From the sequence record OR067838.1: a stretch of DNA of 64,000 nt; one strand, written 5' to 3'. The stretch's first letter is position 1. Each line of letters begins with the position of its first letter. The stretch comes from Escherichia phage KKP 3954. Below the pieces are notes generated by a model. That model ran no database searches. It saw nothing but the letters and a program-made list of their open reading frames with translations, and was not told where the DNA came from. A program made the position numbers and the translations under genes. Positions 1-38,282 of the stretch are shown here, one piece after another.

Positions 1-1100
1 TTTTCGGGCCGTCAGGTCCACGCAGCGACAATTCCCAAATATCATGAGAATGAGAATAATTATCATTCGTATTCAATGACTTATGCAAGGCTCATGCCAA
101 CATAGCGACAAGGTGGCCCACCTGATTATAAATCACACAAACACTTATTTATCAATGGCTTGGCAACTTCATCATATGACGGAACAATGTCAACTGATCC
201 CGCCCATGACAAGCAGACTATTATTTATATGAGAATGATTATTATTTAAACGTTTATTAGCATATAAACTAAAATAAATCAAGAATTTTCTGATTTTATT
301 TACGTTTAAGAGAAGGTGCTCAACATTCCCGCCTGTGGCGGTAACATTTCGCCCCCAAAATTATTGCTTTTTATCTTATTATGTGCATAGTGTGCAATGT
401 ATCGGAATGATGATAATCATCCTCCCATTGCCCCCATAATTATTGCCATGCTAATTGTTTCCTTACGTAATTACCACAATGATTATTGTTATTGCGCTAA
501 TGTTATGATCTTGGTAATTACATATAATGCTAATAATAAGCCAGCGCAATAAGTGTAAGCGTCATTACGCTTGCAATTATTGCAAGCTACGCAGTAACAA
601 GAAATAACCATCACCGATGGTTATGATTGTTGGGGTGTAGTTGGCTTATTATTAGCTCGCTACGTGTCCGGCGTAGCGTGCTAATGATGATCCTTGGAAT
701 GATTCGTTTTGTAATGATTTCATTCAGTCACTATTATGGCAATATACACTATTTTGCTAATAGTTGATCTTTTAATGGTTTCGTTTGTTATTGTTCGTTA
801 GTTGGTTGTTTTGTCGTGTTATCGTTATCTTGTTTAATATTCATCATGGTTTGATTGTTTGTCGTTATCAGTCATCTTGCTATTATTCCTTTGATTATGA
901 TTAGTTTGCTTATTGTTTTATGTTGTTTGTTGGTTAGTTGTTGCGAACTATTATCAACATTATAGTTATGCACTTATATTGAATAGATAATCAATGATAG
1001 ATGATAATGGTTATCATTGCACTAGAAAGGAGGTAAAAGGGTGTTTTTGATGGTTTGTTGTTGGTTGTTGATCGATTTTAACCGCTCTAAATAGCTCTCT
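1..1100. other. Long non-coding AT-rich region with strong T/G skew on the plus strand, short inverted repeats and operator-like palindromes; no ORF of 60 aa or more on either strand
   Basis: ORF track empty before 1120; low-complexity gtt/ttg/tta-rich sequence at 660-1000; hairpin-capable repeats at 540-700. Confidence 0.5.
45..67. promoter_or_regulatory. Palindromic operator-like motif ATGAGAATGAGAATAATTATCATT (Fur-box-like AATGAT-N-ATCATT core); related copies at 231-247, 405-424, 981-1020, 11607-11628, 11667-11685, 11695-11717
   Basis: Repeated near-palindromic motif seen directly in sequence, confined to the non-coding regions flanking the early gene cluster. Confidence 0.3.
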
Positions 1101-1221
1101 AACAGCCTGTTGCCCTGAGATGTATGGTTATTCGTTTAATGGTCGATTAGCTCGATACCGTGATTTATTCAGTTTTGTTCTGTGTCGGTTTTTCATAGGC
1201 GAAAGCTATCAACATTATTCG

Positions 1222-1251
1222 GGCAAAAAGAAAGGGCGCTTGATGCGCCCT
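1222..1251 (-). terminator. Rho-independent terminator (hairpin AGGGCGCATCAAGCGCCCT plus T-run on minus strand); identical copy at 6145-6173
   Basis: GC stem-loop followed by TTTCTTTTT on minus strand, just downstream of the stop of gene 1267..1650. Confidence 0.55.
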
Positions 1252-1266
1252 GGTATGAAATGTTAT

Positions 1267-1650
1267 TTACTGATAAGCCGGATCATTTGTTATATCAATC
1301 CAATGAGATAAATTAATTTTATTTTTTGCTTTCATTTTCTCGATCAAACGTTCGGCTAATGTCTCGGAACGAATATAAACGTTTTCGCTAAAATCTTGCC
1401 CCGTTTCATCGTCGATCATCTCGCGATATTCAATTTTCCCGATAAACGCGTGATTCAGCGCATAAGTTTTACCCGTGTACCAATTATGTAAATGAATCTC
1501 GCATTTATAATCATCGCTATAACCTTCGGTTGTTCTAACTTCAACCAGATCGCCTTTAAACACTGACAAGCACCACATAGGATCACGGTCTACAGCGCCG
1601 TTAAAGTCTTTACCGTTTACAGTCGCTGCCAGGTTGATGATATTGCTCAT
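1267..1650 (-). CDS. Hypothetical early protein
   Basis: ORF track 1267..1725; start moved to ATG at 1650 with AGGAA Shine-Dalgarno (SD); TTGACA-17-TATTAT promoter upstream. Confidence 0.55.
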   Translation of the reverse strand: MSNIINLAATVNGKDFNGAVDRDPMWCLSVFKGDLVEVRTTEGYSDDYKCEIHLHNWYTGKTYALNHAFIGKIEYREMIDDETGQDFSENVYIRSETLAERLIEKMKAKNKINLSHWIDITNDPAYQ

Positions 1651-1696
1651 GGTGATTCCTCGTTTACCGTTTAAAATTGTTTGCCCTACGTGATAA

Positions 1697-1725
1697 ATAA
1701 TAATGTAAGCGTGATCCGGTGTCAA
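1697..1725 (-). promoter_or_regulatory. Sigma70-like early promoter (TTGACA, 17 nt spacer, TATTAT)
   Basis: Consensus -35 and -10 hexamers read on minus strand upstream of gene 1267..1650. Confidence 0.5.
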
Positions 1726-2033
1726 TAGGTAGAATTGTAAAGATTTGATAGTTTATTCCTTTGATGTTTTGTTGTTTGATAGGCATTAGTTATCAATATA
1801 TAGCGGGGTCTTCCGGTGATTATCTTCCCCTGCTTCCAGGTGCCGCCCGTTCAATAAGTATAACAAAAAACAGAACAAAAACAAGTCCTGTTTTTCTTAT
1901 TTTTAAAACCAGTTGCCAACCGTTTCCAATAGGTCACTGACTACCAGGACAACACTGATCAGCACATATTCAACTATGAAGGGGATAAGCGCCAGCGTCG
2001 CTACTATGATCCCCATTGTGATGATTACCTTTC

Positions 2034-2324
2034 TCATTGTTGGCGGCTTACGTAGGCTTTACCGTTTACGGTCATCGGTATGGCCTCAAGGTCTGGATCT
2101 TCCTTAAGGTCGCGTGCAAGCTCACCGCAGCGGATACCCTCGAATCCGTGGTATTCTGTCTCGCCGTCCTTGAAAGTTTTAGCGGCAAGGCATAGGCGAT
2201 AATTAACACCGATCCGGTTTACTGCGTTGATGTCGGTTAGCGTGATAGATTCCGGCAACTCATTAGCCATTGCAGGCGCGTTAATACCAACAACCAGGGC
2301 AACTACTGCGATCATCTTTTTCAT
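2034..2324 (-). CDS. Small secreted or periplasmic protein (N-terminal signal peptide)
   Basis: ORF track; N-terminus MKKMIAVVALVVGINAPAMA is signal-peptide-like; SD present. Confidence 0.6.
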   Translation of the reverse strand: MKKMIAVVALVVGINAPAMANELPESITLTDINAVNRIGVNYRLCLAAKTFKDGETEYHGFEGIRCGELARDLKEDPDLEAIPMTVNGKAYVSRQQ

Positions 2325-2379
2325 GTTGTTTAACCTCTTCCTATTGCGTTTAATGGGGCGTTACCGCCCTGTTTATGGT

Positions 2380-2616
2380 TTATTGATTGATGTTATAATG
2401 AAAATTATTTTCTTCAATAGCTTTTAAAATAAAAGCCGTGATCGCTTTCGTGTCTACTTGTTCGAACGTATCAGAATAGCACCAATAATAATCATCCCCT
2501 ACTTTCGGCGGGTAAACCTGGACAAGGAGATCGCCACCTGGTTGATCTATAAGCTCAACATGCAAGCCGGATGATTCAGCGGTTTTAACGGCGTTTAATA
2601 CTGTTGCAATACTCAT
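2380..2616 (-). CDS. Hypothetical early protein
   Basis: ORF track; ATG start; GC hairpin leader upstream. Confidence 0.55.
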   Translation of the reverse strand: MSIATVLNAVKTAESSGLHVELIDQPGGDLLVQVYPPKVGDDYYWCYSDTFEQVDTKAITAFILKAIEENNFHYNINQ

Positions 2617-2660
2617 AATCTTTCCCTTTCTGATGTGGGGCGTTGCCGCCCCTTTGTTGA

Positions 2661-2960
2661 TTAGATCGCTGTTTCCAGTAGTTCGGCTAACGTCTTACCG
2701 CCTGATAGTTGGTCTAACGTTTGCTCTTCTGGCAAGAAATTAGCTGATATTAAACCGACTTGATTCCCTTTGTGCCAGTTAGCCTGGCGGATGATTCCAT
2801 CCTTTAAGGATTTTACCGCCATTGTGCAACCGTCGCCAAATGATTCATTTTTATGGTCCATCACTTCATAAGCGCCCAGCTTGCTGCTGTTAGGCACCAT
2901 TAACGCGAATACATCACCAACAACCAGTTTTTCTACGGTAACAATAGCGATAGTTTCCAT
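2661..2960 (-). CDS. Hypothetical early protein
   Basis: ORF track; ATG start; promoter and GC hairpin leader at about 2975-3040. Confidence 0.55.
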   Translation of the reverse strand: METIAIVTVEKLVVGDVFALMVPNSSKLGAYEVMDHKNESFGDGCTMAVKSLKDGIIRQANWHKGNQVGLISANFLPEEQTLDQLSGGKTLAELLETAI

Positions 2961-3041
2961 TTTACTTTCCTCATTATCGGCGGCACCATTGCCGCCCTAC
3001 GTGGTAAATATTAGCACACTGGCGATCTGTGTCAATACTTT

Positions 3042-3428
3042 TTATTCAATATAAATCAAATTATCTTCACCAATGTAAGCCGACACGTTCGGCATAAACT
3101 TAGCTGCATTGGTTAGGCGGTTCGCCGTGTTAGTGGTGTATATTTCAGGGCGATCCCAAAAGCCTACGCCGTGACTGTTACGGGTAAAATGTAAATCATT
3201 CCCGATCTGGTTGGCTGTTGCGCCGTCGCTCATTGCCTCAGAGATAGCGGCAAGATTAGCATTAATAAAGGCTGTTACATCCTGGGCGATCCGTTCGTCC
3301 GCGCTAGGAGAAAAATCATAATCGTCTAAGTTATCAATAAAATTACCTTCATGATCCCTTGCTGATTCAGCAAAAATAAAGGCTTCTTTATAACCGTTGA
3401 TGATTTCAATAATGATTTCTGTTTTCAT
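3042..3428 (-). CDS. Hypothetical early protein
   Basis: ORF track 3042..3446; probable ATG at 3428; overlaps upstream gene by about 22 nt. Confidence 0.5.
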   Translation of the reverse strand: MKTEIIIEIINGYKEAFIFAESARDHEGNFIDNLDDYDFSPSADERIAQDVTAFINANLAAISEAMSDGATANQIGNDLHFTRNSHGVGFWDRPEIYTTNTANRLTNAAKFMPNVSAYIGEDNLIYIE

Positions 3429-11349: not shown

Positions 11350-11378
11350 TTGACAAGCCCAGGGATCGGGCTTATACT
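11350..11378 (+). promoter_or_regulatory. Near-consensus sigma70 promoter (TTGACA, 17 nt spacer, TATACT) followed by a GC-rich structured segment of about 110 nt
   Basis: Hexamers seen directly; same GGG(A)CTTATACT -10 context recurs at 46759-46787. Confidence 0.5.
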
Positions 11379-11719
11379 GTTTTACATACAGAAGAGGAAG
11401 CGCCACCCCACGGCGTAAAGGCGGGGCTAACATACCAGGGCGCTGGTTGGAAGGTTGATCGCCGGTAGGCTGGGCGCTATATATTTGTAAAGAAATGTAA
11501 AGATAAAATAATCGCTTGCTTTCCTGGCTGGATCTGTTATTCTTATTACATGGCGAGGGGATACGGGAACGCGAGACAAACACCGCCCCTGCGCGTCATT
11601 CTCTAAATGAGAATGATTATCATTTACCTTATTGAATAAGAATCAATCTCATTTATAAACTTAAATGCGAATCATTATCATTTGCATTTCCATATGAGAA
11701 CTCTTCTCATTCTCACCTG

Positions 11720-11960
11720 CATAAATTTTTGTAAACTTTAAATTTTGCTTTTGTATTTTCATTTTTGTAAAAGCAAAAAAACTTTAAATACTGTGGGCGC
11801 GCAAAATTTTTAAAATTTTCCTTGACTTTTGAGTTTTGTTTTGTATCTAACATTTTAAGATAATTTTCCTAAACTTTAAATTTTGGTTTTCAACTTTCAC
11901 TTTTGTAAATTCTTAAAAAGTTTAAATAATTTGAGGAATTTTTGAGATAACAGGTAGTGG
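11720..11960. repeat. AT-rich region with two imperfect direct repeats of about 65 bp (each with AAACTTTAAATTTTG and TTTTGTAAA) and a TTTGAGATAAC direct repeat
   Basis: Repeats read directly in the sequence; no ORFs; lies between the two minus-strand gene clusters. Confidence 0.45.
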
Positions 11961-12060
11961 TAATTTGAGATAACCTTTAATCTTGTTGGTAAACCTTCAG
12001 GAACCCACCTAGATCGAATCCTAGAAAGGTCAACTGAAAAAGACAAGTGTTTGTATAGGA

Positions 12061-12096
12061 CAAAATAATAGGCTCTCTACGGTGCTGTAGGAGCCT
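12061..12096 (-). terminator. Rho-independent terminator downstream of the NADAR gene
   Basis: Hairpin GGCTCTCTAC..GTAGGAGCC followed by T-rich tract on minus strand. Confidence 0.5.
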
Positions 12097-12151
12097 TATT
12101 TCTGTGCTACAAAGTGGCACCTTTGTTCTAAAAATGAAAAAAGTTAAAATA

Positions 12152-12694
12152 TCACAAATATCGTCTTTGCGGTATTTTGTCTGGGAAAAGTATTTCGATC
12201 AGTTTATTATGATATTTGCCTAAAAGATTCTGCCCTTTCCAAGTGGCAGGGTTGAGCACCCCTGGTTCATACATCCCCATTCCAATTCCGTAAACCTTAT
12301 CGTAGGGGCTTGCTTCAACAAACGTTTTGTATTGGTAAAGGTGCAAGTCTGCATACAAATCTGGATTCTGTATATATTTCAAGCATAAACCTCGCATAAC
12401 AATACGCTCACGGTTCTCTTCCCACACGTTGTTATCAAAATCCGACACTGCCCTACCCATACGTTTGTAATAAGCTTGTTTCCTCTCGTTGTCACGTATA
12501 GTCGAGTGATCAAGGATAGCTGCTGCAATCGCATGATCCTTGAACAGCAAAGCCTTACGCCACATCATGTATTGCTCAACACAACAGAAAGTCTCATTGT
12601 AACCTGGTTCGGTTTCTGTAAAGGGTGCAATATACCAATTACTAAAAACATCTTTATGTGAAAAGAAGAATACATATTCGTCAGTTATTCTCAT
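12152..12694 (-). CDS. NADAR-domain (YbiA-like, DUF1768) protein; candidate ADP-ribose-processing enzyme
   Basis: 180 aa; FFF..FSNW..PF, EQ..M..KA.LF and NP.L motifs typical of the YbiA/NADAR fold. Confidence 0.6.
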   Translation of the reverse strand: MRITDEYVFFFSHKDVFSNWYIAPFTETEPGYNETFCCVEQYMMWRKALLFKDHAIAAAILDHSTIRDNERKQAYYKRMGRAVSDFDNNVWEENRERIVMRGLCLKYIQNPDLYADLHLYQYKTFVEASPYDKVYGIGMGMYEPGVLNPATWKGQNLLGKYHNKLIEILFPDKIPQRRYL

Positions 12695-12870
12695 TTTTTC
12701 ATACCTTCTAAGACTTTAGCTTGCCCGTCTTGAAAAGCTTTCATCAGAACTATCTTAAGATTGACTTCCAAACGTTCTTCATCCTCTTTATAACAATCCA
12801 ACACTGCTTTAAGTTCATCATAGTGGTTCAGAATAGGTTTAAAGATTTCATGATCTGCTAAACGTGCCAT
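12691..12870 (-). CDS. Hypothetical protein (about 59 aa)
   Basis: ORF track 12691..12906; start moved to ATG 12870 with SD AAGGAG. Confidence 0.5.
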   Translation of the reverse strand: MARLADHEIFKPILNHYDELKAVLDCYKEDEERLEVNLKIVLMKAFQDGQAKVLEGMKK

Positions 12871-12883
12871 AGTTTCTCCTTTG

Positions 12884-13249
12884 TTAATCCATCCACCAGT
12901 AGCCATAAACTGCGTCTGCGTCGATGAGTTTGTGTTTGTTGTTCCGCATGTAGTCTAAGATAAGTAGACGTTTATTGTATCTAGAGAGATTATGACCCTC
13001 TTTTCCGCCATAGTCAAAATATTTTGCAAGATCTTTACACTCAAACAAAATCAGTTCGGGAGTTTCTTCACACTGGTCTGTCTGGTACACTTGACGAATG
13101 ATCATGTATACATCGTCGTCTTCCGCTAAATGCTCTACTGGTCCACATCCAGCAGGAACAAATTCATAGTCCCATCTGATCAGATGTTTCTCTACTGCTT
13201 CAAAGAAGTCCATTCTTTCGTTGCGCATAATTTGAACGTCAACTAACAT
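12884..13249 (-). CDS. Hypothetical protein
   Basis: ORF track; ATG 13249 with SD AGGAGGA; contains an in-frame GTATAC at 13106-13111 with no break. Confidence 0.55.
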   Translation of the reverse strand: MLVDVQIMRNERMDFFEAVEKHLIRWDYEFVPAGCGPVEHLAEDDDVYMIIRQVYQTDQCEETPELILFECKDLAKYFDYGGKEGHNLSRYNKRLLILDYMRNNKHKLIDADAVYGYWWMD

Positions 13250-14234
13250 GTTTCCTCCTGTAATGTTCCACCATAAAGTTTATAAATGTTTTGTATTGAG
13301 GCCATGCAAGATAACTCTACTGTTTCTGTGTAGCCATCTGGCATAGAATATTTGCTCACTGCTTCCGTGTGAAGGACACGCTTACAACGCTTTTCTGCAT
13401 CTTTGCATTGCTTCACAGTAGGGAAGTGCCACACTTGGCTCTGTTTCATAGTAAACACATTATGACTATTTTGTTCTTTGATACGGCGATCACTACTATT
13501 GGCAATACCAAACTTCAAAGCACAGAGAAGATTTTGTTCATCGTAGATATAGTTGATGTATGCCTGTTGTTGTGTATGCCCTTTACACTGCGGACAACCA
13601 CGCCCCTTATGTAATAAGTGGTCAGCATTCCCTATTTGCTCCCCGTGATCCTTACATCCATATTTAAACTCTCCTGTTGAGGAAGGTTTACTAATCCACT
13701 CCATCCAGATATATCCTTTACTTTCTAAACCTTTTCTCACCTTGTAAGTGATCTGATCTTTTGTGTAACGGTAAACTCTAGTATACAACGACAAGGGATA
13801 ATCCCTTTTTTAAGATCGTTCCCTGCAATGTAAAATTTACCATCACACACTCCTGCTTGTACGTATTCATCATGAGAACAAACAGGACATTCAACCATCC
13901 AGAGAATATGACTCCCTTTACGTTTGCCTGTATTGGTGAAAATAGTACCAGGTTTAAACTTTCCTGTGTTAATGAAATCTTTTATGTGCTGATCGTCTGT
14001 CTTACCTCCTTTCCCAACTCCTTTCCCAATTGCACAGACAGGACAACCAGCACGACCAGTTTTAAAGTTTTTAAATGTTGTAGTGTTCCATTCATGAGCA
14101 TACTGACAACGATTGATCATTTTCGTGTGTTGTCCTGTAAACGGCTCAACAATTCCAATAATCTCAATCCCTTTAGCAGCAGCAATAGGTTGACACTCTT
14201 CAATATATTGTTCAATACTCTTCTTTACTGGCAT
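13243..14234 (-). CDS. Zn-finger plus T5orf172 (MUG113-like) domain protein; split into track ORFs 13737..14243 and 13243..13794 by an apparent 1-nt deletion at GTATAC 13781-13786
   Basis: N-terminal CxxC pairs; C-terminal LKFGIANSSDRRIKEQN resembles the T5orf172 core; the two ORFs join after a -1 shift inside the overlap. Confidence 0.45.
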
Positions 14235-14311
14235 ATCTAACAATTATCTCCCTATTAAACTGAAATCAATATAACAAAACCCGCCGAAGCGGGTTTAATA
14301 AGGGAGCCTTA

Positions 14312-29697: not shown

Positions 29698-30303
29698 ATG
29701 CAACATAGTGTAGTAGTCAACATGCCGAATAGTGGGGATAAATCTTTTGGTGTCCCTGCTAAAAAAGTGTGGAAAGCCCATTTTCATCTTACTTTATCTA
29801 ACGTTAGTTCTGAAGAGTTGATGAAAGCAGCTAAGATCATTGGTGCCAAATGCACAACAATTGATTTACATCGGGATACAAAGTCTCAACGTGATCGTAT
29901 GTTAACAAAGTATCAAAGCGATCTCGACACTACGTTAATGTTGCAATGTGTAGAAAAACTTGAGAATGCAGGTTTCAATGTTGTTCGTTACAAACTAGAA
30001 CGAATGTTCAAACATGTTGCCTGTGTTCTTTTCATGGATCTAAGCAAAGAAAATTACGGAGAAGTTCACATTAAAACTTCAGCAAGTGATCCTGAAGTAG
30101 AAACAAACTTCTTCCGTATTTCTTCTAATGCTGAAGAACTTGATTACCGATTTTACAATGCTCGCTTATATTCCGCAGAAGATAAGTTGCGTTTCAATGA
30201 AGCATATGATATGCTCTTGAACAGTGGGATACAGATAAAAGGCTACCACATAGAACAAGTTGTGGTAGACAGTAACTTAAATCTTGATGCATGGTGGGCC
30301 TAA
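29698..30303 (+). CDS. Hypothetical protein, first gene of the Ter-like cluster
   Basis: ORF track; SD GAGGAG. Confidence 0.55.
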   Translation: MQHSVVVNMPNSGDKSFGVPAKKVWKAHFHLTLSNVSSEELMKAAKIIGAKCTTIDLHRDTKSQRDRMLTKYQSDLDTTLMLQCVEKLENAGFNVVRYKLERMFKHVACVLFMDLSKENYGEVHIKTSASDPEVETNFFRISSNAEELDYRFYNARLYSAEDKLRFNEAYDMLLNSGIQIKGYHIEQVVVDSNLNLDAWWA

Positions 30304-30304
30304 T

Positions 30305-30961
30305 ATGACAATAAAACATATCTCTTTTGATGTATGGAATACTCTTATTTCTGCCAATCAAAACTATGCAGATGCACGTACGCACACTATTGCCACATAT
30401 GGTAGAATGTCTGAACGTGCCGCAAAAGAAGCATATAAAGATGCCAAAGAAATTATGGATAATGCTGCACTAAATGGGTGTGCAGAAGGTGTAGCATATG
30501 CATGGAATATGTTGGGAAGAAAGATAGGTTTAACCCCTGTAGAATCTGCACAAATGCGTTTTGAGTGTGAGCAATGGTTTCTTAAATTTCCTCCACATAT
30601 TGCTTTAGATTTGCCAGTTTGTTTGCTATACTTGTCTGGTAAATATGATCTTAGTATTAAAAGCAATACTAATTTTATATCTGGGGATATTTTGCGTCGT
30701 GCTTGCATGTTTGATAGTTGGAATTGTTTTGAATTTATGCATTTTTCAGACGAACATTTGTTGTGTAAACCAGATCCTAGATTCTTTGTTAGGACCGCAA
30801 CATATTCAAGCATTCCTTTGAAGGCTGAAGAGATTTTACATGTTGGGGACAGCGAAGAATTTGATGGAAAATGTGTTGACATAGGGATTAACTTCTGTCA
30901 TATTAAGAACCCTAACGACTTACTAGAGAAACTTAAAAGAGGAGAAATTGTAAATGCGTAA
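30305..30961 (+). CDS. HAD-superfamily hydrolase-like protein
   Basis: N-terminal ISFDVWNTL (HAD motif I variant) and later HVGDS; ORF track 30284..30961 trimmed to ATG 30305. Confidence 0.45.
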   Translation: MTIKHISFDVWNTLISANQNYADARTHTIATYGRMSERAAKEAYKDAKEIMDNAALNGCAEGVAYAWNMLGRKIGLTPVESAQMRFECEQWFLKFPPHIALDLPVCLLYLSGKYDLSIKSNTNFISGDILRRACMFDSWNCFEFMHFSDEHLLCKPDPRFFVRTATYSSIPLKAEEILHVGDSEEFDGKCVDIGINFCHIKNPNDLLEKLKRGEIVNA

Positions 30962-30990
30962 TCAAACTCAAATTTTTGCAAATAAATTTG

Positions 30991-31782
30991 ATGACACTGG
31001 AAACTGCTACTTTTGATATCAAAGATTATTCAAAATTGAAATTTGGTAGTAACCAAGCTGCGCGTCGTATGGGTAAAGAATTGGCACTTCAGTTTTTTGC
31101 TCAAGTGGCAATGAAACATATTGGGGAACAATTTGTTATCATTCCTTCTCCTTATAACCATGTGCATAATGCTGCAACAATGATGACAGATCATTTTATT
31201 AATTACTTTAATATGTTGCAAGCACAATATGATCAAGGTCGTTCAGCAGAACTGGATATTATTCATCGTAAAGTTAGCTATATCAACGATTATGGTTTCT
31301 TGGATAAAGCTAGTCGTAAGAAACTTATTGATGGGGATACATTCTACTGCAACAAAGAATTCTGGGGTGATAAGAAGCTTGTGTTCATTGATGATGTAAA
31401 TATCACTGGAACTCATGAAGACAAACTAATTGAGATTCTTGATGAAAATCAAGTTAAAAATGATGTTTACTTCTTGTATTTTGCAAAATATGAAGGTAAT
31501 CAAGCAGATACCGAAGCTAAGCTGAATTTTAACTATATTAATACACCAGAAGCGTTTGTTAAAATGATTAATGAAGAACGTGATGCACAGTGTCTTGTTC
31601 GTCCTATTAAGTATCTTATGGGCCAAAATCATGAAGACTTCAAAATCATTCTTAGCCAATTGCCACACTACTATGTGGAACAACTTTTCTTCGGCTGTTT
31701 AGCTGAAGGCTACAATCGAATTGCAAAGTATGCTGAAAACTTTGAGTTCTTGGATCGCTACACAAAACAACATATTCTGTAA
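30991..31782 (+). CDS. Phosphoribosyltransferase (PRTase type I)-like protein
   Basis: PRPP-binding motif KKLVFIDDVNITGTHEDKL; start ATG 30991 or TTG 30976. Confidence 0.5.
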   Translation: MTLETATFDIKDYSKLKFGSNQAARRMGKELALQFFAQVAMKHIGEQFVIIPSPYNHVHNAATMMTDHFINYFNMLQAQYDQGRSAELDIIHRKVSYINDYGFLDKASRKKLIDGDTFYCNKEFWGDKKLVFIDDVNITGTHEDKLIEILDENQVKNDVYFLYFAKYEGNQADTEAKLNFNYINTPEAFVKMINEERDAQCLVRPIKYLMGQNHEDFKIILSQLPHYYVEQLFFGCLAEGYNRIAKYAENFEFLDRYTKQHIL

Positions 31783-31795
31783 TAAGGAGCTAAAA

Positions 31796-32269
31796 ATGCT
31801 TAAAATGAAAACAGGTAATCTTATTGATGCCGCTAAAGCAGGTGAAGTAACTGTTATCGCTCATTGTTGCAATTGTATGTGTAATATGGGGGCAGGTATT
31901 GCCCCACAAATCAAACGAGCATTTCCTTACGCATATGCAGCAGACTTAGACACAATGGCTGGTGATCAAAGTAAACTAGGTTGTTTTAGTTTAGGGGTGC
32001 CAGACGAACAATCAGACCCTTTGGTATATAATCTATACGGGCAATACCGTTACGGATACAATGCTAAAGGTCGTCAGTTGGACTATGATGCACTTTACGA
32101 TGCACTAATAGCTATGGCTAATGATTTGCTTCTCCGTGACCAAAAATGTAAGATCGGCTTACCTATGATTGGCGCTGGACATGCTGGAGGTAATTGGGCT
32201 ATCATCCAAGTGATGATTGAAGAAACTTTAGTAAAAACAGGTCACGATGTGACTATTTATAAACTTTAA
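31796..32269 (+). CDS. Macro-domain protein (ADP-ribose binding/processing)
   Basis: VIAHCCNCMCNMGAGIA and GLPMIGAGHAGGNW blocks fit the macro-domain Gly-rich loops; SD AAGGAG. Confidence 0.55.
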   Translation: MLKMKTGNLIDAAKAGEVTVIAHCCNCMCNMGAGIAPQIKRAFPYAYAADLDTMAGDQSKLGCFSLGVPDEQSDPLVYNLYGQYRYGYNAKGRQLDYDALYDALIAMANDLLLRDQKCKIGLPMIGAGHAGGNWAIIQVMIEETLVKTGHDVTIYKL

Positions 32270-32281
32270 GAGGAGATTAGT

Positions 32282-32503
32282 ATGGGTGTTTTTGCAGGTA
32301 TTGTTGCAGTGGTAAGCTTTTTTGTTATTGCTTTTATGCTTAGTTTGATTCCAGCTTGGTTATTGTTGCTGGCTTACAACTATGTTGCTGAAGTTATGGG
32401 TCATGCAGATATCACTGTCCCAGTAACCTTCTGGACCGTGGTTTGTGTTTCGTTTATTCTGGCTGTATTACGAGGAATCTTTTCCTCTCATTCAACAAAA
32501 TAA
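32282..32503 (+). CDS. Small membrane protein (two TM helices)
   Basis: ORF track; hydrophobic throughout. Confidence 0.5.
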   Translation: MGVFAGIVAVVSFFVIAFMLSLIPAWLLLLAYNYVAEVMGHADITVPVTFWTVVCVSFILAVLRGIFSSHSTK

Positions 32504-32506
32504 GTG

Positions 32507-32534
32507 TTGACATAGTTCTTAAAAAGAGTAAGAT
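32507..32534 (+). promoter_or_regulatory. Early-family promoter (TTGACA, 16 nt spacer, TAAGAT) with GC stem-loop leader (32546-32564) upstream of the TerC gene
   Basis: Same promoter-leader architecture as the left-end early genes, here on the plus strand. Confidence 0.5.
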
Positions 32535-32584
32535 ATATCACATGAAGCGGGGAATAGTTCCCCGCAAAGAGAAAGGAGAAAATA

Positions 32585-33559
32585 ATGCAACTTGGTTTCC
32601 CAATCATTGATGTAGTTGTTTTAGTTGGTATTTTAGCATTGTCTATTGGTATCGATTTCTTTGGTCATAAAGAGAATAAAGAAATTGGAATTAAATCTGC
32701 TTTGCTTTGGTCTGTTTTTTGGATTGCTTTAGCTTTAGGATATTACGCATTCATTTGGGTAGAACATGGTAAAGAGTTTGCCGCGCTTTTCCTAAGTGGC
32801 TATGTGTTGGAAAAGAGTCTTTCTGTAGATAACCTAATGGTGTTCATGGCAATTTTTGCAAGCTTTGGAATTAAGAGCACACATCTCCAACATAAGATTT
32901 TACTTTGGGGGATTGCAGGAGCCATTGTCTTCCGAGGTATTTTTGTTGCAGCAGGCACCGCTTTGTTTAACCTTCATTGGTCGGTCCAAGTGTTGTTCGG
33001 TTTGATTGTAGCTTGGTCTGCCGTGGCTATCATCAAAGGTGGTGATGAAGAAGAGGATATCGATTACTCTAAACATTGGGCTGTTCGTTTAGTAGGTAAA
33101 GTTCTGCCTGTGCACAATGCACTGGATGGTGAAAAGTTCATCACCATTAAGAATGGTATTAAATATGCAACTCCTGCTCTTCTTTGTGTGTTTGTTATTG
33201 AGCTTACAGATATTGTCTTCTCTTTTGATTCAGTTCCGGCTGTGATCGGTGTGACACAAGAACCTGTGCTAGTTTATTCTGCAATGCTGATGGCTGTTCT
33301 TGGTTTACGTGCACTTTTCTTTGTGTTAAGTGTAGCTGTGAAATATCTGGTTCACTTAGAGAAAGCTGTTGCTGTGGTTCTGGTGTTTGTTGGTGCTAAA
33401 CTTATGTATCACCCGTTCGGTGAAACACTTCATGCCAAGTGGTCATTCCTCCCGCATGATATTTCCCCTAACGTAAGTCTGATGATTGTTCTAGGCACAT
33501 TAGCTCTTGGTGTTATTGCAAGCTTTATCTTCCCTGAAAAAGAAGAAGCTGCTGTTTAA
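32585..33559 (+). CDS. terC: TerC-family integral membrane protein
   Basis: 324 aa, multi-TM; conserved LSVDNLMVFMAIF and ELTDIVFSFDSVPAV blocks. Confidence 0.7.
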   Translation: MQLGFPIIDVVVLVGILALSIGIDFFGHKENKEIGIKSALLWSVFWIALALGYYAFIWVEHGKEFAALFLSGYVLEKSLSVDNLMVFMAIFASFGIKSTHLQHKILLWGIAGAIVFRGIFVAAGTALFNLHWSVQVLFGLIVAWSAVAIIKGGDEEEDIDYSKHWAVRLVGKVLPVHNALDGEKFITIKNGIKYATPALLCVFVIELTDIVFSFDSVPAVIGVTQEPVLVYSAMLMAVLGLRALFFVLSVAVKYLVHLEKAVAVVLVFVGAKLMYHPFGETLHAKWSFLPHDISPNVSLMIVLGTLALGVIASFIFPEKEEAAV

Positions 33560-33565
33560 TAGATG

Positions 33566-33590
33566 AGCCTCCTTCGGGAGGCTATTTTTA
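33566..33590 (+). terminator. Rho-independent terminator after the TerC gene
   Basis: AGCCTCCTTCGGGAGGCT hairpin plus T-run. Confidence 0.65.
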
Positions 33591-33602
33591 TAGGAGAGAC
33601 TT

Positions 33603-33953
33603 ATGAGCAATTTTGATGAAATTCAAAAACTTGTTTGGGATTTACCTGGTGATGTTGATTACGTTTCAGATTATCTTTCAAAAGTTTACCTTGGGGTAAG
33701 CGTTATGATTGTGACCAAAGATCCAATTAACCTTCCTCCTAATGTAGTAGCTTGTTGTGGAAGTGGTTCAGGAGAGGTAGAACCTGTATCTCGTTGGGAA
33801 TTAACCAAGGCTGTTTCAAAACGAAACGGCGAAGTTTTGAATATTGATATCGAACAAATCTGGACTTCTCCAGCCGCCAAGTGGAATGATCCTAATGGTT
33901 GGGATTTGTTCTTCTGGGATAATGAAACTGATGATGAGGTATTTTTAAAATGA
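33603..33953 (+). CDS. Hypothetical protein
   Basis: ORF track; SD GGAGAGA. Confidence 0.55.
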   Translation: MSNFDEIQKLVWDLPGDVDYVSDYLSKVYLGVSVMIVTKDPINLPPNVVACCGSGSGEVEPVSRWELTKAVSKRNGEVLNIDIEQIWTSPAAKWNDPNGWDLFFWDNETDDEVFLK

Positions 33954-34195
33954 AATACTTGTTGGTTGTGTTTGAAAATATTTGTTTTGCAATAGGGTTG
34001 TTTGTTGTAATTTTTGTATTGACAAGCGTAATCAACGGCAGTAAAGTGAGTTTATACCGAGATGGAGAGCAGCTTTATTGCTTCTCTGGAGATTTCAAAC
34101 ACAGATGTATTAATAGTCAAAACGAGGAAAGCAAATATGAAAAAACTAGCCCTGATTTTAATTGGTTGTATCTTTTTAACAGCTTGCGAGGATGA
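33950..34195 (+). CDS. Small membrane protein (single TM); 3-prime end overlaps the lipoprotein gene in another frame
   Basis: ORF track; the true end is uncertain. Confidence 0.35.
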   Translation: MKYLLVVFENICFAIGLFVVIFVLTSVINGSKVSLYRDGEQLYCFSGDFKHRCINSQNEESKYEKTSPDFNWLYLFNSLRG

Positions 34196-34574
34196 AACAA
34201 ATCCTACACAATATCAACAACCTCCTCAACAATACGCTCAACAAGGATCTGACGGAGATACAACTATTATCAACAATGGTGGCGGTTCTAGTAGTAGCGG
34301 TGTTGGTGAGTTTGCTACAGGTATGTTGTTAGGACATATGATGAGCGGTGGTAGTAATCGTAGCGGCGGGGATTATAACGATAACAGAACGATTATTAAT
34401 AAACATTATAACACACCTAAACCGAAAACTAATTTTTATGGTAAGCCTAAACAAGAGATAAAAACTTATGAAAAGCCAAGACAAACTTTTAAAACAAATA
34501 GCAGCTATACAACTCGTAAATCTTACAATAGCCCTTTAAGTAAAAAGAGTTCATCTCGTAGCAAGCGACGTTAA
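34137..34574 (+). CDS. Lipoprotein (signal peptide with LTAC lipobox; Gly/Ser/Asn-rich; basic C-terminus)
   Basis: ATG 34137 with SD GAGGAAAG; N-terminus MKKLALILIGCIFLTAC. Confidence 0.55.
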   Translation: MKKLALILIGCIFLTACEDETNPTQYQQPPQQYAQQGSDGDTTIINNGGGSSSSGVGEFATGMLLGHMMSGGSNRSGGDYNDNRTIINKHYNTPKPKTNFYGKPKQEIKTYEKPRQTFKTNSSYTTRKSYNSPLSKKSSSRSKRR

Positions 34575-34588
34575 TAAGGAGAAAAATA

Positions 34589-35182
34589 ATGACAATTTCT
34601 ATTCGTACTTCCATCGTAGGTGTTAAAAGGTTGCCTAATGCTTTGCAAATCACACGTGCTTTGAGGGATACGTTCTCTGCTGTGGATGAGCATAAGATGC
34701 TTGATAATCTGTCAAATTGGCCCTATTTTCATTATTTTAAAAATGAAGACGACGAGTTTATAGATGCTGTTTCTTATGGTTATGATTTCGGTAAGGAGGT
34801 TTCTCCTGAAGAATTTGTAGCTACGGTATTCCCAAATGGTTTCCCTACTCGCAGTAAACGTAAAAAAGGACCAAAAAACAAGAAACGTGCTACTAATAAA
34901 GCTACCATTTTCTTTACTGATGGGACACAGTATACGATTAAAGATTTTGAAGAAGTATCTTATACAGCAGGTGGGAATCTTTCTTTCTACACCATCAAAA
35001 AACAAAACTCTACGTTCAGCCATGTTTCTAACATGATTGAAATGTTAGTAGAAGATATTGAAAGCGTGGCTGTGTTAGGTATGCATAAAAGCTTTTTAAT
35101 TACAAATATTTCAGATTTCAGTGCACGTTTATCTGGCCCTGATTTTGAAGCCACGACCACGCATTTCACTTTTAAGGTGTAA
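34589..35182 (+). CDS. Hypothetical protein
   Basis: ORF track; SD AAGGAG; in-frame GTATAC at 34930 with no break. Confidence 0.55.
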   Translation: MTISIRTSIVGVKRLPNALQITRALRDTFSAVDEHKMLDNLSNWPYFHYFKNEDDEFIDAVSYGYDFGKEVSPEEFVATVFPNGFPTRSKRKKGPKNKKRATNKATIFFTDGTQYTIKDFEEVSYTAGGNLSFYTIKKQNSTFSHVSNMIEMLVEDIESVAVLGMHKSFLITNISDFSARLSGPDFEATTTHFTFKV

Positions 35183-35185
35183 GTT

Positions 35186-35776
35186 ATGTATACCGAGAGA
35201 GACTTGCAACTCTTGTGGTGGGAAGTGATGCAGGAAATAAAAGAAGATTTTCCTGTTTACTACAACATGTTACGTGAAGCAGGATATAAAGCTTGTGTTA
35301 GAAACAAAGTGAATAACTCTTTCGGTTGGTGCAACTACCGAGATAAAATTGTTGTTGTAAATTGGCACTTGCATAAGAACTCTACAAGAGATATGATCGT
35401 GGATACAATGAAGCACGAAATTGCTCATGCTATTGATGGTTGTATGGGTAAGTTTAGTCGGCACGGTGCTCATTGGCAAAAACTGGCAGCAGAATTAGGG
35501 GCTAATCCTAAAGCCACTTCCAAAGAGCCGTTGAACCACGAATATAAATATGTTCTTGTTCTGGTAGATAGGTTTGCGACAAGATGTGTTAGAGGTTATA
35601 ATCGTAAACCTAATCGCATGTACCCAGGTAAGCAACCTAATATGTGGTTGAAATCAGATAAAGAAGGGACCGAAGGAAAATTATGGTTGTATAAATGGGA
35701 CGATTGGGTTAAAGTAGCTAAAGAATACGGTGTTTCACCATATATAAGAGATGCAGAAGAGGAGAATGAAGAATGA
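35186..35776 (+). CDS. SprT-like zinc metalloprotease-domain protein
   Basis: HEIAHAI (HExxH) followed by HGAHW, as in SprT-like domains. Confidence 0.55.
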   Translation: MYTERDLQLLWWEVMQEIKEDFPVYYNMLREAGYKACVRNKVNNSFGWCNYRDKIVVVNWHLHKNSTRDMIVDTMKHEIAHAIDGCMGKFSRHGAHWQKLAAELGANPKATSKEPLNHEYKYVLVLVDRFATRCVRGYNRKPNRMYPGKQPNMWLKSDKEGTEGKLWLYKWDDWVKVAKEYGVSPYIRDAEEENEE

Positions 35777-36885
35777 CAAGTCCATTTTTAAAAGCAGCTA
35801 CTGGTGGTCAGAAGAAGCCTGAAATGAGCGTATTTGCTGCAACAACAGATGCAAGTAAATCTGTATTCGCTCCAAGCGTGTTAGATGCCAGTCCTGTTTA
35901 TGCACCAGCGGCACCGCAAGAAGTTCCAGTTTTGCCTTCTATGACCCGACAAGAGATCGAAGAGATTGGGGCAGAGGCAGGAACAACCTTGCGTTCCTTG
36001 AATGCCGAGGTATTAAAACATCAACGTAGTAATCAAGGAGATCAGATGAGTGAACGACTCACAGCTTTGATTAAACAGGCAAAACAACTTGATCCAAACT
36101 CTATTAAACAAAGCAAAGGTATTACTAAACTCATTAAAAAAGTTATGGGTATGAAAGAAGACCTGTTTGGGGAGTTTGATAATGTTAATAACCGTATTGA
36201 AGAGTTGGTAAAGAACCTTCAAATGGATATTCGCAAAGAAGAAGATTCCTTGGTATATCTTGAAAAGCTACATCAAGCTATTGGACAATATGCCGCAAGT
36301 TTGAACCGAGATATGCAGCTTCTAACAGCAACCTACGAAAAAGAAGAACAAGCTTTGGCTGCTCTTCCAGAAGATGCGGTAGAACAGCGACAAGTGATCC
36401 GAGATACTTTGGATCTTCTGGAGATTCGTATTGCGGATTTAAAAGCATTGCGCCTACTGTGTGTCCAAATGGGACCACGTGTGCAAGGTATGCAAAAAGT
36501 TTCTGCAAGCTTAATGCGATCTGCGCGTAACATAGTAAATAATGTTATTCCTGCTTACTCTGCTAACTTCTCAATGTATATTGAGAGCTTGCGTCAAATG
36601 AAAGCCGCAGAGACGCAGAATAACGTTCTTGATGAATTTAACCTGGCAATTAAACTGGGTAGCGATCTTGCCACACAGAATCAGATCGAAGCAGCAGCAC
36701 TGGCTAACCGTCAAGTGTTGGATATTGAAACTCTGCGTCACGATCAGGAAAACTTGGTTAAGATGTTGGAAGAAACTAACCGCATCAATACGGAAGCCCG
36801 TGCTGCTCGTGTTGATTATATTAATGAAGTTCAATCTCTGGAAGACGGGATGGTAGCTGCTGTGAAACGAGGGCTTGGTAAATGA
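35773..36885 (+). CDS. TelA-like (toxic anion resistance family) protein
   Basis: 370 aa, long predicted coiled coils; size and Ter-cluster context fit TelA; assignment from context and composition rather than a sharp motif. Confidence 0.45.
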   Translation: MTSPFLKAATGGQKKPEMSVFAATTDASKSVFAPSVLDASPVYAPAAPQEVPVLPSMTRQEIEEIGAEAGTTLRSLNAEVLKHQRSNQGDQMSERLTALIKQAKQLDPNSIKQSKGITKLIKKVMGMKEDLFGEFDNVNNRIEELVKNLQMDIRKEEDSLVYLEKLHQAIGQYAASLNRDMQLLTATYEKEEQALAALPEDAVEQRQVIRDTLDLLEIRIADLKALRLLCVQMGPRVQGMQKVSASLMRSARNIVNNVIPAYSANFSMYIESLRQMKAAETQNNVLDEFNLAIKLGSDLATQNQIEAAALANRQVLDIETLRHDQENLVKMLEETNRINTEARAARVDYINEVQSLEDGMVAAVKRGLGK

Positions 36886-38281: not shown

Positions 38282-38282
38282 T

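What the first reader, a model, noticed from the sequence alone, without database searches (positions are those of the whole stretch)
12152..12694. Phage-encoded NADAR (YbiA-like) protein, together with a macro domain protein at 31796..32269
NADAR-family enzymes have been reported to remove ADP-ribose from guanine in DNA (reversing DarT1-type toxins), and macro domains remove ADP-ribose from thymine or proteins (as DarG does). A phage carrying both looks equipped to counter DNA ADP-ribosylating defence systems such as DarTG. The NADAR gene sits at the end of the leftward operon with other candidate counter-defence genes.
Basis: partly seen in the sequence, partly recalled or inferred. Interest (0 to 1): 0.6.

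Follow-up and report, generated by a model that had tools for sequence, protein, structure and literature searches.

The report
Phage NADAR and macrodomain ADP-ribose erasers
This E. coli phage (genus Phapecoctavirus) carries two real, conserved enzymes that strip ADP-ribose, and close relatives of both are already published phage weapons against the bacterial DarTG DNA-modifying defence, so the finding is correct but not new.

Summary
The window is a Phapecoctavirus, a ~150 kb E. coli myovirus.

**NADAR (12152..12694, minus strand, 180 aa)**
- It is a solid NADAR: Pfam E 1.9e-35, and a pLDDT 95 model matches PDB 8bau and E. coli YbiA.
- All catalytic residues are invariant.
- It is 58% identical to, and syntenic with, Bas60 gene bas60_0111. 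That gene is evidently the published AdfN^Bas60, which neutralises DarT1 and rescues phages from DarTG1.

**Macro (31796..32269, plus strand, 157 aa)**
- It belongs to the TARG1/DarG/SCO6735 class, with Gln where DarG has its catalytic Lys. SCO6735, which removes DarT-made thymidine-ADP-ribose, has the same Gln.
- T4 Tk.4 (AdfM, needed against DarTG2) also has the Gln; it is 36% identical and sits in the same phage family.

**Caveats**
- Close relatives of the macro often lie beside NAD+-reconstitution genes. A macro in that setting (Adpp) is an ADPR-1''-phosphate phosphatase.
- This phage lacks those partner genes.
- "YbiA-like" is imprecise, and the neighbouring "counter-defence genes" are unsupported.

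**Verdict:** a new member of a known kind, of modest interest. No enzyme activity could be tested here.

The parts
12152..12694 (-). NADAR-domain gene (180 aa). It is the ortholog of the Bas60 NADAR gene bas60_0111 (published as AdfN^Bas60) and a predicted guanine-N2-ADP-ribose DNA glycohydrolase.
   Evidence: Pfam E 1.9e-35. 58% identity to bas60_0111 in the same genomic position. E40, K47, K77 and E127 are invariant and R81 is nearly invariant in 58 homologs. The AF2 model (pLDDT 95.1) hits 8bau at E 4.6e-9 and YbiA 2b3w at E 1.5e-6.
31796..32269 (+). Macrodomain gene (157 aa), ALC1/TARG1/DarG class, Gln-type like SCO6735. Same phage family as T4 Tk.4/AdfM.
   Evidence: Sequence and fold matches. 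PADLOC DarG model E 2.7e-10 over its macro part. 36% identity to T4 Tk.4, E 1e-20. H23, N26, Q83 and G126 are invariant, and G128 nearly invariant, in 63 homologs.
12691..13249 (-). Two small ORFs of unknown function (71 aa and 121 aa as listed) directly upstream of the NADAR gene, overlapping one another and it. Context only.
   Evidence: ORF list. They match phrog_22330 and phrog_24465, both of unknown function, and have no Pfam hit. A promoter-like site lies at 13017-12989 on the minus strand.
30284..31782 (+). HAD-type hydrolase plus PRTase_3 (ComF-like phosphoribosyltransferase) gene pair immediately upstream of the macro gene. Context only; the functional link is unproven.
   Evidence: PF15610 E 1.5e-41 and a weak HAD hit. 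The same pair is conserved in Justusliebigvirus, Xanthomonas phage XaC1, Rhizobium phage TM21B and Caulobacter phage CcrColossus.
32282..33559 (+). 73-aa predicted membrane protein and TerC, downstream of the macro gene. They begin the rest of a phage Ter-like cluster (SprT-like 35186, TelA 35773, vWA-TerF 38283, TerD 39590). Context only.
   Evidence: Pfam hits and annotation of ESCO13 and DE16.

Best explanation
The phage encodes two independent, stand-alone ADP-ribose erasers that most likely protect its replicating DNA from DarT toxins.

- The NADAR protein (an AdfN of the Bas60 type) hydrolyses ADP-ribose from the N2 of guanine placed by DarT1. This cancels DarTG1 abortive-infection defence.
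- The macrodomain protein (an AdfM of the T4 Tk.4 / SCO6735 Gln type) hydrolyses ADP-ribose from N3 of thymine placed by DarT2. This cancels DarTG2.

Shown here: gene presence, fold, family membership, active-site conservation, orthology or homology to the tested proteins, purifying selection, and conservation across the genus.

Inferred: both enzymatic activities and both in vivo phenotypes for this phage. The macro half is the less certain.
For: NADAR:
- Pfam, NCBIfam and PHROG hits.
- A pLDDT 95 model matches P. nicotianae NADAR bound to ADPr and E. coli YbiA.
- Residues aligned to Pn E43, K50, K75 and E125 (E40, K47, K77, E127) are invariant and R81 (Pn R79) is nearly invariant. Their roles are described in PMC11543638.
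- It is 58% identical to bas60_0111 and holds the same slot, ATPase - endonuclease - NADAR - repeat region.
- The published AdfN^Bas60 neutralises DarT1 without phage factors and rescues three phages on DarTG1, but not on DarTG2 (PMC11825919).

Macro:
- The closest solved relatives are SCO6735, Bt_1257, DarG and TARG1, and it hits the PADLOC DarG model.
- The SCO6735 functional residues H24, N27, Q85, G126 and G128 correspond to H23, N26, Q83, G126 and G128, and the mobile loop has the same length.
- SCO6735 removes DarT-made dT-ADPr in vitro and in cells, and its Q85A mutant is inactive (PMC9411070).
- T4 Tk.4/AdfM is required against DarTG2. It shares the signature, is 36% identical and nests inside the same phage clade.
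- The whole genome of the near-identical phage DE16 has no Adps or Namat, so the NARP1-AP role has no partner enzymes.

Both: present in 70 of 70 genus-level records and under purifying selection.
Against: - No activity or phenotype has been tested for any Phapecoctavirus protein.
- E. coli YbiA and T4 30.3 NADARs remove G-ADPr in vitro yet failed to rescue cells from DarT1 in one study (PMC11125620). In vivo efficacy is therefore not guaranteed by the fold.
- The macro lacks the two lysines that SCO6735 uses to hold DNA: K34 and K89 correspond to A33 and G87.
- The active-site signature does not separate T4 AdfM from macros that sit beside NARP1 genes. A macro in that setting has been shown to be an ADPR-1''-phosphate phosphatase.
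- Of the 80 closest viral loci, 32 have a NAMPT/Namat-like gene within 10 kb.
- Identity to NARP1-linked macros (40-49%) is higher than to T4 Tk.4 (36%).
Confidence: 0.6

Rival explanations
1. The macro protein acts on soluble ADP-ribose derivatives rather than on DNA. Candidate activities are ADPR-1''-phosphate phosphatase (Adpp-like, countering RES-domain NAD+ phosphorylases), O-acyl-ADP-ribose deacylase for products of the phage's own Sir2, or clean-up of RNA-repair by-products.
For: - The NARP1-associated macro Adpp converts ADPR-1P to ADPR and overcomes aRES (bioRxiv 10.64898/2026.01.28.702374).
- Relatives of the window macro are repeatedly next to NAD+-salvage genes. Examples: Pyxpy01, PRPP-synthetase-like then NAMPT-like then macro; jumbo-phage contigs, NAMPT - NADAR - x - macro - HAD ... 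SIR2; a bacterial contig, NAPRTase - macro - NadE.
- Of 80 viral loci, 32 have NAMPT-like, 30 PRPPs-like, 23 SIR2 and 7 RNA ligase 2 within 10 kb.
- Poa1p is a good structural match (TM 0.78-0.81), and the T4-like homolog is annotated as Poa1p-like.
- DE16 encodes a Sir2 homolog.
- In this phage the macro lies next to a PRTase and a HAD phosphatase.
Against: - No Adps, Namat or NadM-type gene exists anywhere in the near-identical DE16 genome, so dephosphorylating ADPR-1P could not rebuild NAD+ by the published route.
- At the sequence level SCO6735 and DarG match far better than Poa1p (E 1.9e-12 and 1.2e-6 against 3.6e-3).
- The Gln83 signature is that of a proven DNA glycohydrolase.
- T4 also lacks NARP1 and uses its family member against DarTG2.
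- I could not obtain the Vibrio phage Gary Adpp sequence, so I could not confirm that it belongs to this family.
Confidence: 0.25
2. Both enzymes reverse ADP-ribosylation by transferases other than DarT. Possible sources are protein or RNA ADP-ribosylation by other host toxins (pierisin/ScARP-like, CmdT-like, RhsP2-like), or off-target modification by phage-encoded NAD+-using enzymes.
For: - Glu-type NADARs remove G-ADPr and C-ADPr from both DNA and RNA (PMC12945103).
- SCO6735 also de-modifies Glu/Asp-ADP-ribosylated protein.
- The NADAR's best PADLOC hit is a candidate defence-system component (PDC-M42C), not DarG1.
- Iyer et al. find that Macro and NADAR co-occur in DNA-virus genomes more often than chance would give, and argue for broad ADPr-derivative targets (PMC9503650).
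Against: The only in vivo phenotypes so far shown for the nearest tested relatives are against DarTG1 (AdfN^Bas60) and DarTG2 (T4 AdfM). I identified no ADP-ribosyltransferase gene in the window.
Confidence: 0.1
3. The NADAR is a metabolic N-glycosidase of the YbiA type that destroys reactive riboflavin-pathway intermediates. This is a housekeeping or auxiliary metabolic role, not counter-defence.
For: It scores above the curated cut-off of NCBIfam TIGR02464, 'riboflavin biosynthesis intermediates N-glycosidase' (114 against 73.7 bits). Many phage records annotate it as 'GTP cyclohydrolase II' or 'YbiA-like N-glycosidase'.
Against: - No riboflavin genes lie nearby.
- The 'GTP cyclohydrolase II' label is most likely carried over from RibA/RibD-NADAR fusion proteins; this rests on my own knowledge plus the 'ribA/ribD-fused' source names seen.
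- The ortholog in Bas60 has a demonstrated anti-DarT1 activity.
- All four NADAR families tested hydrolyse G-ADPr.
Confidence: 0.05

Closest known systems
AdfN^Bas60 (anti-DarT factor NADAR of Justusliebigvirus phages Bas60-62; Johannesman et al. 2025, PMC11825919)
   Same: - 58% identical over 172 aa, with the same length class.
- Same genomic slot after the AAA ATPase and endonuclease and before a repeat-rich non-coding region.
- Same Glu-type active site, and the same PADLOC and PHROG family.
- Sister genus in the same subfamily, Stephanstirmvirinae.
   Different: - 42% of residues differ.
- The Bas60 protein has a 7-residue insertion near residues 27-34.
- The Phapecoctavirus protein itself has never been tested.
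- I equated bas60_0111 with AdfN^Bas60 because it is the only NADAR gene found at that locus; the paper's accession table was not available.
T4 Tk.4 = AdfM (anti-DarT factor macrodomain; HIDEN-SEQ preprint 10.1101/2025.11.20.689424)
   Same: Same phage macro family and NJ clade. 36% identical over 124 aa, E 1e-20. Same H..N..Q..G.G signature, and also a stand-alone protein of about 155 aa.
   Different: - T4's loop after the Gln is 5 residues shorter.
- The genomic context differs: the tk-vs region in T4, against HAD - PRTase_3 - macro - TerC here.
- T4 evidence is genetic only; the enzymology has not been shown.
SCO6735 of Streptomyces coelicolor (PDB 5e3b; PMC9411070)
   Same: Best solved-structure sequence match (E 1.9e-12). 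Gln replaces the catalytic Lys. H, N, Q, G and G are conserved, with a mobile loop of equal length.
   Different: It is a bacterial chromosomal protein under a DNA-damage promoter. Its DNA-holding lysines K34 and K89 are not conserved in the phage protein, where they are A33 and G87.
DarG2 / PhiKZ AdfM (Lys-type DarG-like macrodomains; PMC13309987)
   Same: Same fold class (TM 0.76-0.78 to TaqDarG and MtbDarG). The Asn corresponding to TaqDarG N22 is conserved as N26.
   Different: The catalytic Lys80 (K78 in PhiKZ AdfM) is Gln83 here. There is no C-terminal DarT-binding domain: NCBIfam DarG scores 36 bits against a 250-bit cut-off.
Adpp, the macro-domain ADPR-1''-phosphate phosphatase of NARP1-AP operons (Osterman et al. 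2026 preprint)
   Same: It is a stand-alone phage macro protein with a Poa1p-like fold. Many close relatives of the window macro (40-49% identity) lie within a few genes of Adps-like and Namat-like genes.
   Different: This phage has no Adps or Namat. Whether the characterised Vibrio phage Gary protein falls in the same family was not verified.

Membership tests
NADAR superfamily (PF08719) | Profile match above the curated threshold | tested here: met
   122.9 bits against 35.1, E 1.9e-35.
NADAR superfamily (PF08719) | YbiA-like alpha+beta fold | tested here: met
   AF2 model with pLDDT 95.1. Foldseek hits 8bau at E 4.6e-9 (TM 0.78) and 2b3w YbiA at E 1.5e-6; no other hit below E 1.
NADAR superfamily (PF08719) | Catalytic and ADPr-binding residues (Pn NADAR E43, K50, K75, R79, E125) | tested here: met
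   E40, K47, K77 and E127 are invariant and R81 is nearly invariant in 25- and 58-sequence alignments that include 8bau. Residue roles come from PMC11543638.
AdfN, Bas60 type (phage anti-DarT1 NADAR) | Orthology to the tested protein (sequence plus synteny) | tested here: met
   58% identity, E 9e-69. The gene order is the same in muut and PaulScherrer.
AdfN, Bas60 type (phage anti-DarT1 NADAR) | Neutralises DarT1 toxicity and restores plaquing on DarTG1 hosts | not testable with these tools
   Shown only for the Bas60 protein (PMC11825919).
T4-type 'phage NADAR' (gp30.3 / AdfN^T4) | His in place of the conserved Glu (Pn E125 position) | tested here: not met
   The window protein has Glu127 in the EAS motif. 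The His rule is stated. The paper places Bas60-type proteins outside the T4 cluster.
DarG1 antitoxin NADAR | Asp at the catalytic position, an N-terminal extension, and adjacency to a darT1 gene | tested here: not met
   Glu127. At 180 aa the protein has no N-terminal extension (the DarG1 proteins are about 229-234 aa). The neighbours are phage genes, with no DarT. PADLOC gives PDC-M42C, not DarG.
YbiA-type riboflavin-intermediate N-glycosidase (TIGR02464) | Equivalog-domain HMM above cut-off | tested here: met
   114 against 73.7 bits. However, phmmer finds 8bau and not E. coli YbiA at E <= 0.01.
YbiA-type riboflavin-intermediate N-glycosidase (TIGR02464) | N-glycosidase activity on riboflavin intermediates, or linkage to rib genes | tested here: inconclusive
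   No rib genes lie in the neighbourhood. The activity itself cannot be tested with these tools.
Macro domain (PF01661) | Profile match and macro fold | tested here: met
   22.9 against 22.0 bits, which is marginal. phrog_335 E 1e-54. The AF2 model has pLDDT 94.6 and 226 PDB macro-type hits at E <= 1e-3.
ALC1-like class, SCO6735/Bt_1257 Gln subclass | Gln at the TARG1-K84 / DarG-K80 position, plus H24, N27, G126, G128 and the long mobile loop | tested here: met
   H23, N26, Q83, G126 and G128 are present and the loop has equal length. H23, N26, Q83 and G126 are invariant and G128 is nearly invariant in 63 homologs.
ALC1-like class, SCO6735/Bt_1257 Gln subclass | DNA-positioning lysines K34 and K89 | tested here: not met
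   They are A33 and G87 in the window protein. In SCO6735 the K34E mutation nearly abolishes DNA activity.
DarG2 antitoxin | Catalytic Lys80, a C-terminal DarT-binding domain, and an adjacent darT2 | tested here: not met
   Gln83. The protein is only 157 aa, and the NCBIfam DarG equivalog scores 36 against 250 bits. No DarT gene is nearby.
AdfM, T4 Tk.4 type | Homology and a shared active-site signature with Tk.4 | tested here: met
   36% identity, E 1e-20. Same clade and signature.
AdfM, T4 Tk.4 type | Loss of the gene sensitises the phage to DarTG2 | not testable with these tools
   Shown only for T4.
Adpp of NARP1-AP | Macro gene within two genes of an Adps + Namat pair | tested here: not met
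   phmmer at E <= 1e-3 finds no Adps/PRPPs-like or Namat/NAMPT-like ORF in the window or in the whole DE16 genome. The only part of DE16 not covered is a 1.5 kb gap inside the polymerase gene.
Adpp of NARP1-AP | ADPR-1''-phosphate phosphatase activity | not testable with these tools
   Shown for the Vibrio phage Gary protein. I could not retrieve that sequence.

The most novel reading that the evidence does not exclude
The macro gene's fixed position directly after a HAD hydrolase - PRTase_3 cassette, inside a phage Ter-like cluster, may reflect a function. The three enzymes could form an uncharacterised ADP-ribose/NAD+-linked salvage or nucleoside-metabolite route. Such a route would stand in for NARP1, which this phage lacks, and the macro would supply free ADP-ribose, as Adpp does in NARP1-AP. 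Anti-DarT2 activity would then be secondary or absent.
Probability: 0.12. Interest if true: 0.6.

Novelty: new member of a known kind. Interest (0 to 1): 0.3.

Why it matters
It extends two recently named anti-defence families, AdfN and AdfM, to a whole genus of therapeutically used E. coli phages. It predicts that Phapecoctavirus is intrinsically resistant to both DarTG1 and DarTG2.

It also flags an unresolved point. One large phage macro family, found in about 2,900 of 50,697 phage records, contains a proven anti-DarTG2 factor. Many of its members sit beside NAD+-reconstitution genes, where a macro has been shown to be an ADPR-1''-phosphate phosphatase, and the active-site signature does not tell the two groups apart. 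Annotation of these genes as either 'AdfM' or 'Adpp' therefore needs biochemical calibration.

Tried and rejected
- **Rfam:** a scan of the whole window at gathering threshold found nothing.
- **AdfN paper supplement:** the accession table is not held. I identified the Bas60 gene by locating the only NADAR gene in the PaulScherrer, EmilieFrey and JohannJBalmer records instead.
- **Ter-systems paper:** the Anantharaman/Iyer/Aravind 2012 paper is not held. The link between PRTase_3 and Ter clusters rests on my own knowledge.
- **Vibrio phage Gary Adpp sequence:** I tried a tblastn with an Adps-macro-Namat locus macro, the paper text and taxonomy. The sequence was not obtained, so its membership of the window macro's family is unverified.
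- **PRTase_3 and the 201-aa upstream protein:** PDB sequence searches gave nothing. A single-sequence viral scan for PRTase_3 found only one close relative.
- **PRTase_3-macro linkage:** I tested whether this adjacency is general. The HAD-PRTase_3 pair recurs in four phage lineages, but the macro is adjacent only in Stephanstirmvirinae. I rejected adjacency as strong evidence of coupling.
- **'DarG homolog' label for the macro:** rejected as a membership claim. There is no Lys80 and no DarT-binding domain, and the score is far below the equivalog cut-off.
- **T4-type phage NADAR label:** rejected, because the protein has Glu rather than His at the catalytic position.
Full report
**What the window is.** The DNA around both genes is 96-98% identical to Escherichia phages of the genus Phapecoctavirus (subfamily Stephanstirmvirinae). 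These are myoviruses of about 150 kb, such as tuntematon, ESCO13, DE16 and phAPEC8.

**Observation: the NADAR gene.** ORF 12152..12694 on the minus strand encodes 180 aa.
- It matches Pfam NADAR at E 1.9e-35, 122.9 bits against a gathering score of 35.1.
- It also matches phrog_1017 and NCBIfam TIGR02464, above its cut-off.
- Its ATG overlaps the stop of the preceding ORF (ATGA).
- It is the last gene of a leftward string. A non-coding, repeat-rich stretch of about 800 bp follows.

**Observation: the macro gene.** ORF 31796..32269 on the plus strand encodes 157 aa, with the start used in ESCO13 and DE16.
- It only just clears Pfam Macro (22.9 against 22.0 bits).
- It is nonetheless unambiguous. 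It matches phrog_335 at E 1e-54 and the SCO6735 structure at E 1.9e-12 by phmmer, with Bt_1257, T. aquaticus DarG and human TARG1 following.
- A pLDDT 94.6 model matches TARG1, Bt_1257, DarG, Poa1p and SCO6735 with TM 0.74-0.88.

**Observation: conservation.** Each gene is found at >=80% protein identity in 70 phage records. Pairwise dN/dS is 0.03-0.23 for NADAR and 0.01-0.08 for macro.

**The NADAR.** The model (pLDDT 95.1) hits only two solved folds: Phytophthora NADAR bound to ADP-ribose (8bau, E 4.6e-9) and E. coli YbiA (2b3w, E 1.5e-6).
- The residues that PMC11543638 identifies in ADP-ribose binding and guanine-ADPr hydrolysis are Pn E43, K50, K75, R79 and E125. They align with E40, K47, K77, R81 and E127.
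- E40, K47, K77 and E127 are invariant, and R81 nearly so, in alignments of 25 and 58 homologs.
- The Glu at 127 makes this a general-NADAR/YbiA-type enzyme. It is neither the T4-type 'phage NADAR' (His) nor a DarG1 (Asp plus an N-terminal extension).

**The link to AdfN.** Johannesman et al. (PMC11825919) report a NADAR in BASEL phages Bas60-62, named AdfN^Bas60.
- Expressed alone, it neutralises DarT1.
- It restores plaquing of RB69, T5 and Bas25 on DarTG1 hosts.
- It has no effect on DarTG2.

Bas60-62 are phi92-like phages, now Justusliebigvirus, the sister genus of Phapecoctavirus. I located their NADAR gene, bas60_0111 in PaulScherrer, annotated 'putative YbiA-like N-glycosidase'. It is 58% identical to the window protein (E 9e-69). 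It occupies the same slot: AAA ATPase, then endonuclease, then NADAR, then a repeat region. The window gene is therefore its ortholog. Anti-DarTG1 activity is inferred with good, though not complete, confidence. One study found that E. coli YbiA and T4 gp30.3 hydrolyse G-ADPr in vitro yet do not rescue cells from DarT1 (PMC11125620).

**The macrodomain: active site.** Aligned to T. aquaticus DarG, Asn22 is conserved as N26, but the catalytic Lys80 (TARG1 Lys84) is Gln83. This is not a loss of function.
- SCO6735 has Gln85 at that position. It removes DarT-made thymidine-ADP-ribose in vitro and in cells, and its Q85A mutant is dead (PMC9411070).
- The window protein keeps the SCO6735 residues H24, N27, Q85, G126 and G128 as H23, N26, Q83, G126 and G128, and has the same loop length.
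- It lacks the DNA-positioning lysines K34 and K89, which are A33 and G87 here.

**The macrodomain: relatives.** A tblastn shows that this is a very large phage family, with 2,914 records. It includes T4 Tk.4. A 2025 preprint shows that tk.4 is the single T4 gene needed to resist DarTG2, and renames it adfM. Tk.4 is 36% identical to the window protein (E 1e-20) and has the same H-N-Q-G-G signature. The PhiKZ AdfM (PMC13309987) is a different, Lys-type DarG-like macro.

**The rival for the macro.** Contexts of the family are heterogeneous.
- In Justusliebigvirus the order HAD - PRTase_3 - macro - TerC is kept.
- In Mydovirus the macro sits by RNA ligase 2.
- In Pseudomonas phage Pyxpy01 it follows PRPP-synthetase-like and NAMPT-like genes.
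- In jumbo-phage contigs it lies in a cluster NUDIX - NAMPT - NADAR - x - macro - HAD ... SIR2 ... PRPP synthetase.
- In one bacterial contig the order is NAPRTase - macro - NadE.

Among the 80 closest viral loci, the numbers with each gene type within 10 kb were:

| Gene type | Loci (of 80) |
|---|---|
| NAMPT-like | 32 |
| PRPPs-like | 30 |
| SIR2 | 23 |
| Nudix | 21 |
| NADAR | 16 |
| RNA ligase 2 | 7 |
| PRTase_3 | 5 |

The loci are not independent, but at least four distinct architectures are involved.

Osterman et al. (2026 preprint) show that a macro protein in NARP1 operons, Adpp, is an ADPR-1''-phosphate phosphatase. It lets NARP1 overcome the RES-domain defence aRES. In a neighbour-joining tree, T4 AdfM nests among NARP1-linked macros, and the active-site signature is uniform across the family. 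Sequence therefore cannot assign the activity.

Against the Adpp role in this phage: the complete genome of DE16 (97.5% identical to the window over the 9 kb around the macro gene) has no Adps-, Namat- or NadM-like gene. T4 has the same situation. I could not retrieve the characterised Vibrio phage Gary Adpp to confirm that it belongs to this family.

**Surroundings.** The macro gene lies in a phage Ter-like cluster: nrdD - nrdG - ... - HAD - PRTase_3 - macro - 73-aa membrane protein - TerC - ... - SprT-like - TelA - ... - vWA-TerF - TerD.
- The HAD-PRTase_3 pair is a conserved cassette in four unrelated phage lineages. The macro accompanies it only in Stephanstirmvirinae, so adjacency is weak evidence for coupling.
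- The genes upstream of NADAR are two small proteins of unknown function, a T5orf172/CapR-type endonuclease (frameshifted in this window) and an AAA ATPase. Nothing marks them as counter-defence genes.
- The NADAR and macro genes are 19 kb apart and on opposite strands.

**Verdict.** The NADAR half is well supported. The macro half is plausible, with a live alternative of soluble ADPr-derivative hydrolysis. This is a new member of a known kind, of modest interest.

Noticed in passing
window 13243..14243 (-): The T5orf172/CapR-type (phrog_681) endonuclease gene carries a 2-bp insertion relative to tuntematon and DE16. This splits it into two overlapping ORFs, 13737..14243 and 13243..13794. It is a pseudogene, a sequencing error or a frameshift site. 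DE16 also has a 204-bp insertion near the 5' end.
   Followed up: partly
window 11350..12150: An AT-rich non-coding region of about 800 bp lies just downstream of the NADAR gene. It holds three repeats spaced about 29 nt apart (11604-11711, with a 21-nt inverted repeat) and a 72-nt direct repeat (11724-11795 and 11862-11933). There is no Rfam match. A 'repeat_region' is annotated at the same place in tuntematon and muut.
   Followed up: partly
window 46..3203 and 11606..11682: The motif GAGAATGATTATCATT, which resembles the E. coli Fur box, occurs 15 times at <=3 mismatches against 1.46 expected. The matches cluster in the small-ORF region and in the intergenic region after NADAR. The Fur consensus GATAATGATAATCATTATC has 2 hits at <=3 mismatches against 0.06 expected. 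This may be a host-regulator or phage-regulator operator set.
   Followed up: partly
window 30284..40192: A phage-borne Ter-like cluster: HAD, PRTase_3 (PF15610), macro, TerC, SprT-like, TelA, vWA-TerF-like and TerD. It is conserved in Phapecoctavirus and Justusliebigvirus, and Pseudomonas phage Pyxpy01 also combines macro with TelA, vWA and TerC.
   Followed up: partly
window 30284..31782; L102, L103, L104: The HAD hydrolase - PRTase_3 gene pair is a conserved two-gene cassette in four unrelated phage groups: Stephanstirmvirinae, Xanthomonas jumbo phage XaC1, Rhizobium Kleczkowskaviridae (where a Nudix gene follows) and Caulobacter/Brevundimonas Dolichocephalovirinae. Its function is unknown and there is no PDB relative by sequence.
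   Followed up: partly
L012, L013 (jumbo-phage contigs); L034-L077: In many large-phage contigs a NADAR and a macro of the same families lie one gene apart. They sit inside an NAD+ cluster: NUDIX - Glu_synthase - NAMPT - NADAR - x - macro - HAD_SAK_2 ... SIR2 ... PRPP synthetase - Thg1.
   Followed up: partly
L006 4734..5450 (Justusliebigvirus SD2): The Justusliebigvirus macro gene is annotated as 239 aa, with an N-terminal extension of about 85 aa that the Phapecoctavirus protein lacks. The open frame does extend upstream. I did not check whether the extension is translated.
   Followed up: no
L099 19993..20814 (DE16); ESCO13 gp056-057: Phapecoctavirus encodes a Sir2-like protein, and ESCO13 also has a gene annotated as DprA-like, both outside this window. 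One paper lists an anti-TIR gene, Atd1, for Phapecoctavirus and Justusliebigvirus. These phages therefore carry several NAD+-related functions.
   Followed up: no
window 12152..12694: The best PADLOC match of the NADAR (and of the Bas60 gene) is PDC-M42C, a component of a candidate bacterial defence system (E 1e-35), rather than DarG1. This hints at the bacterial source of this NADAR lineage.
   Followed up: no
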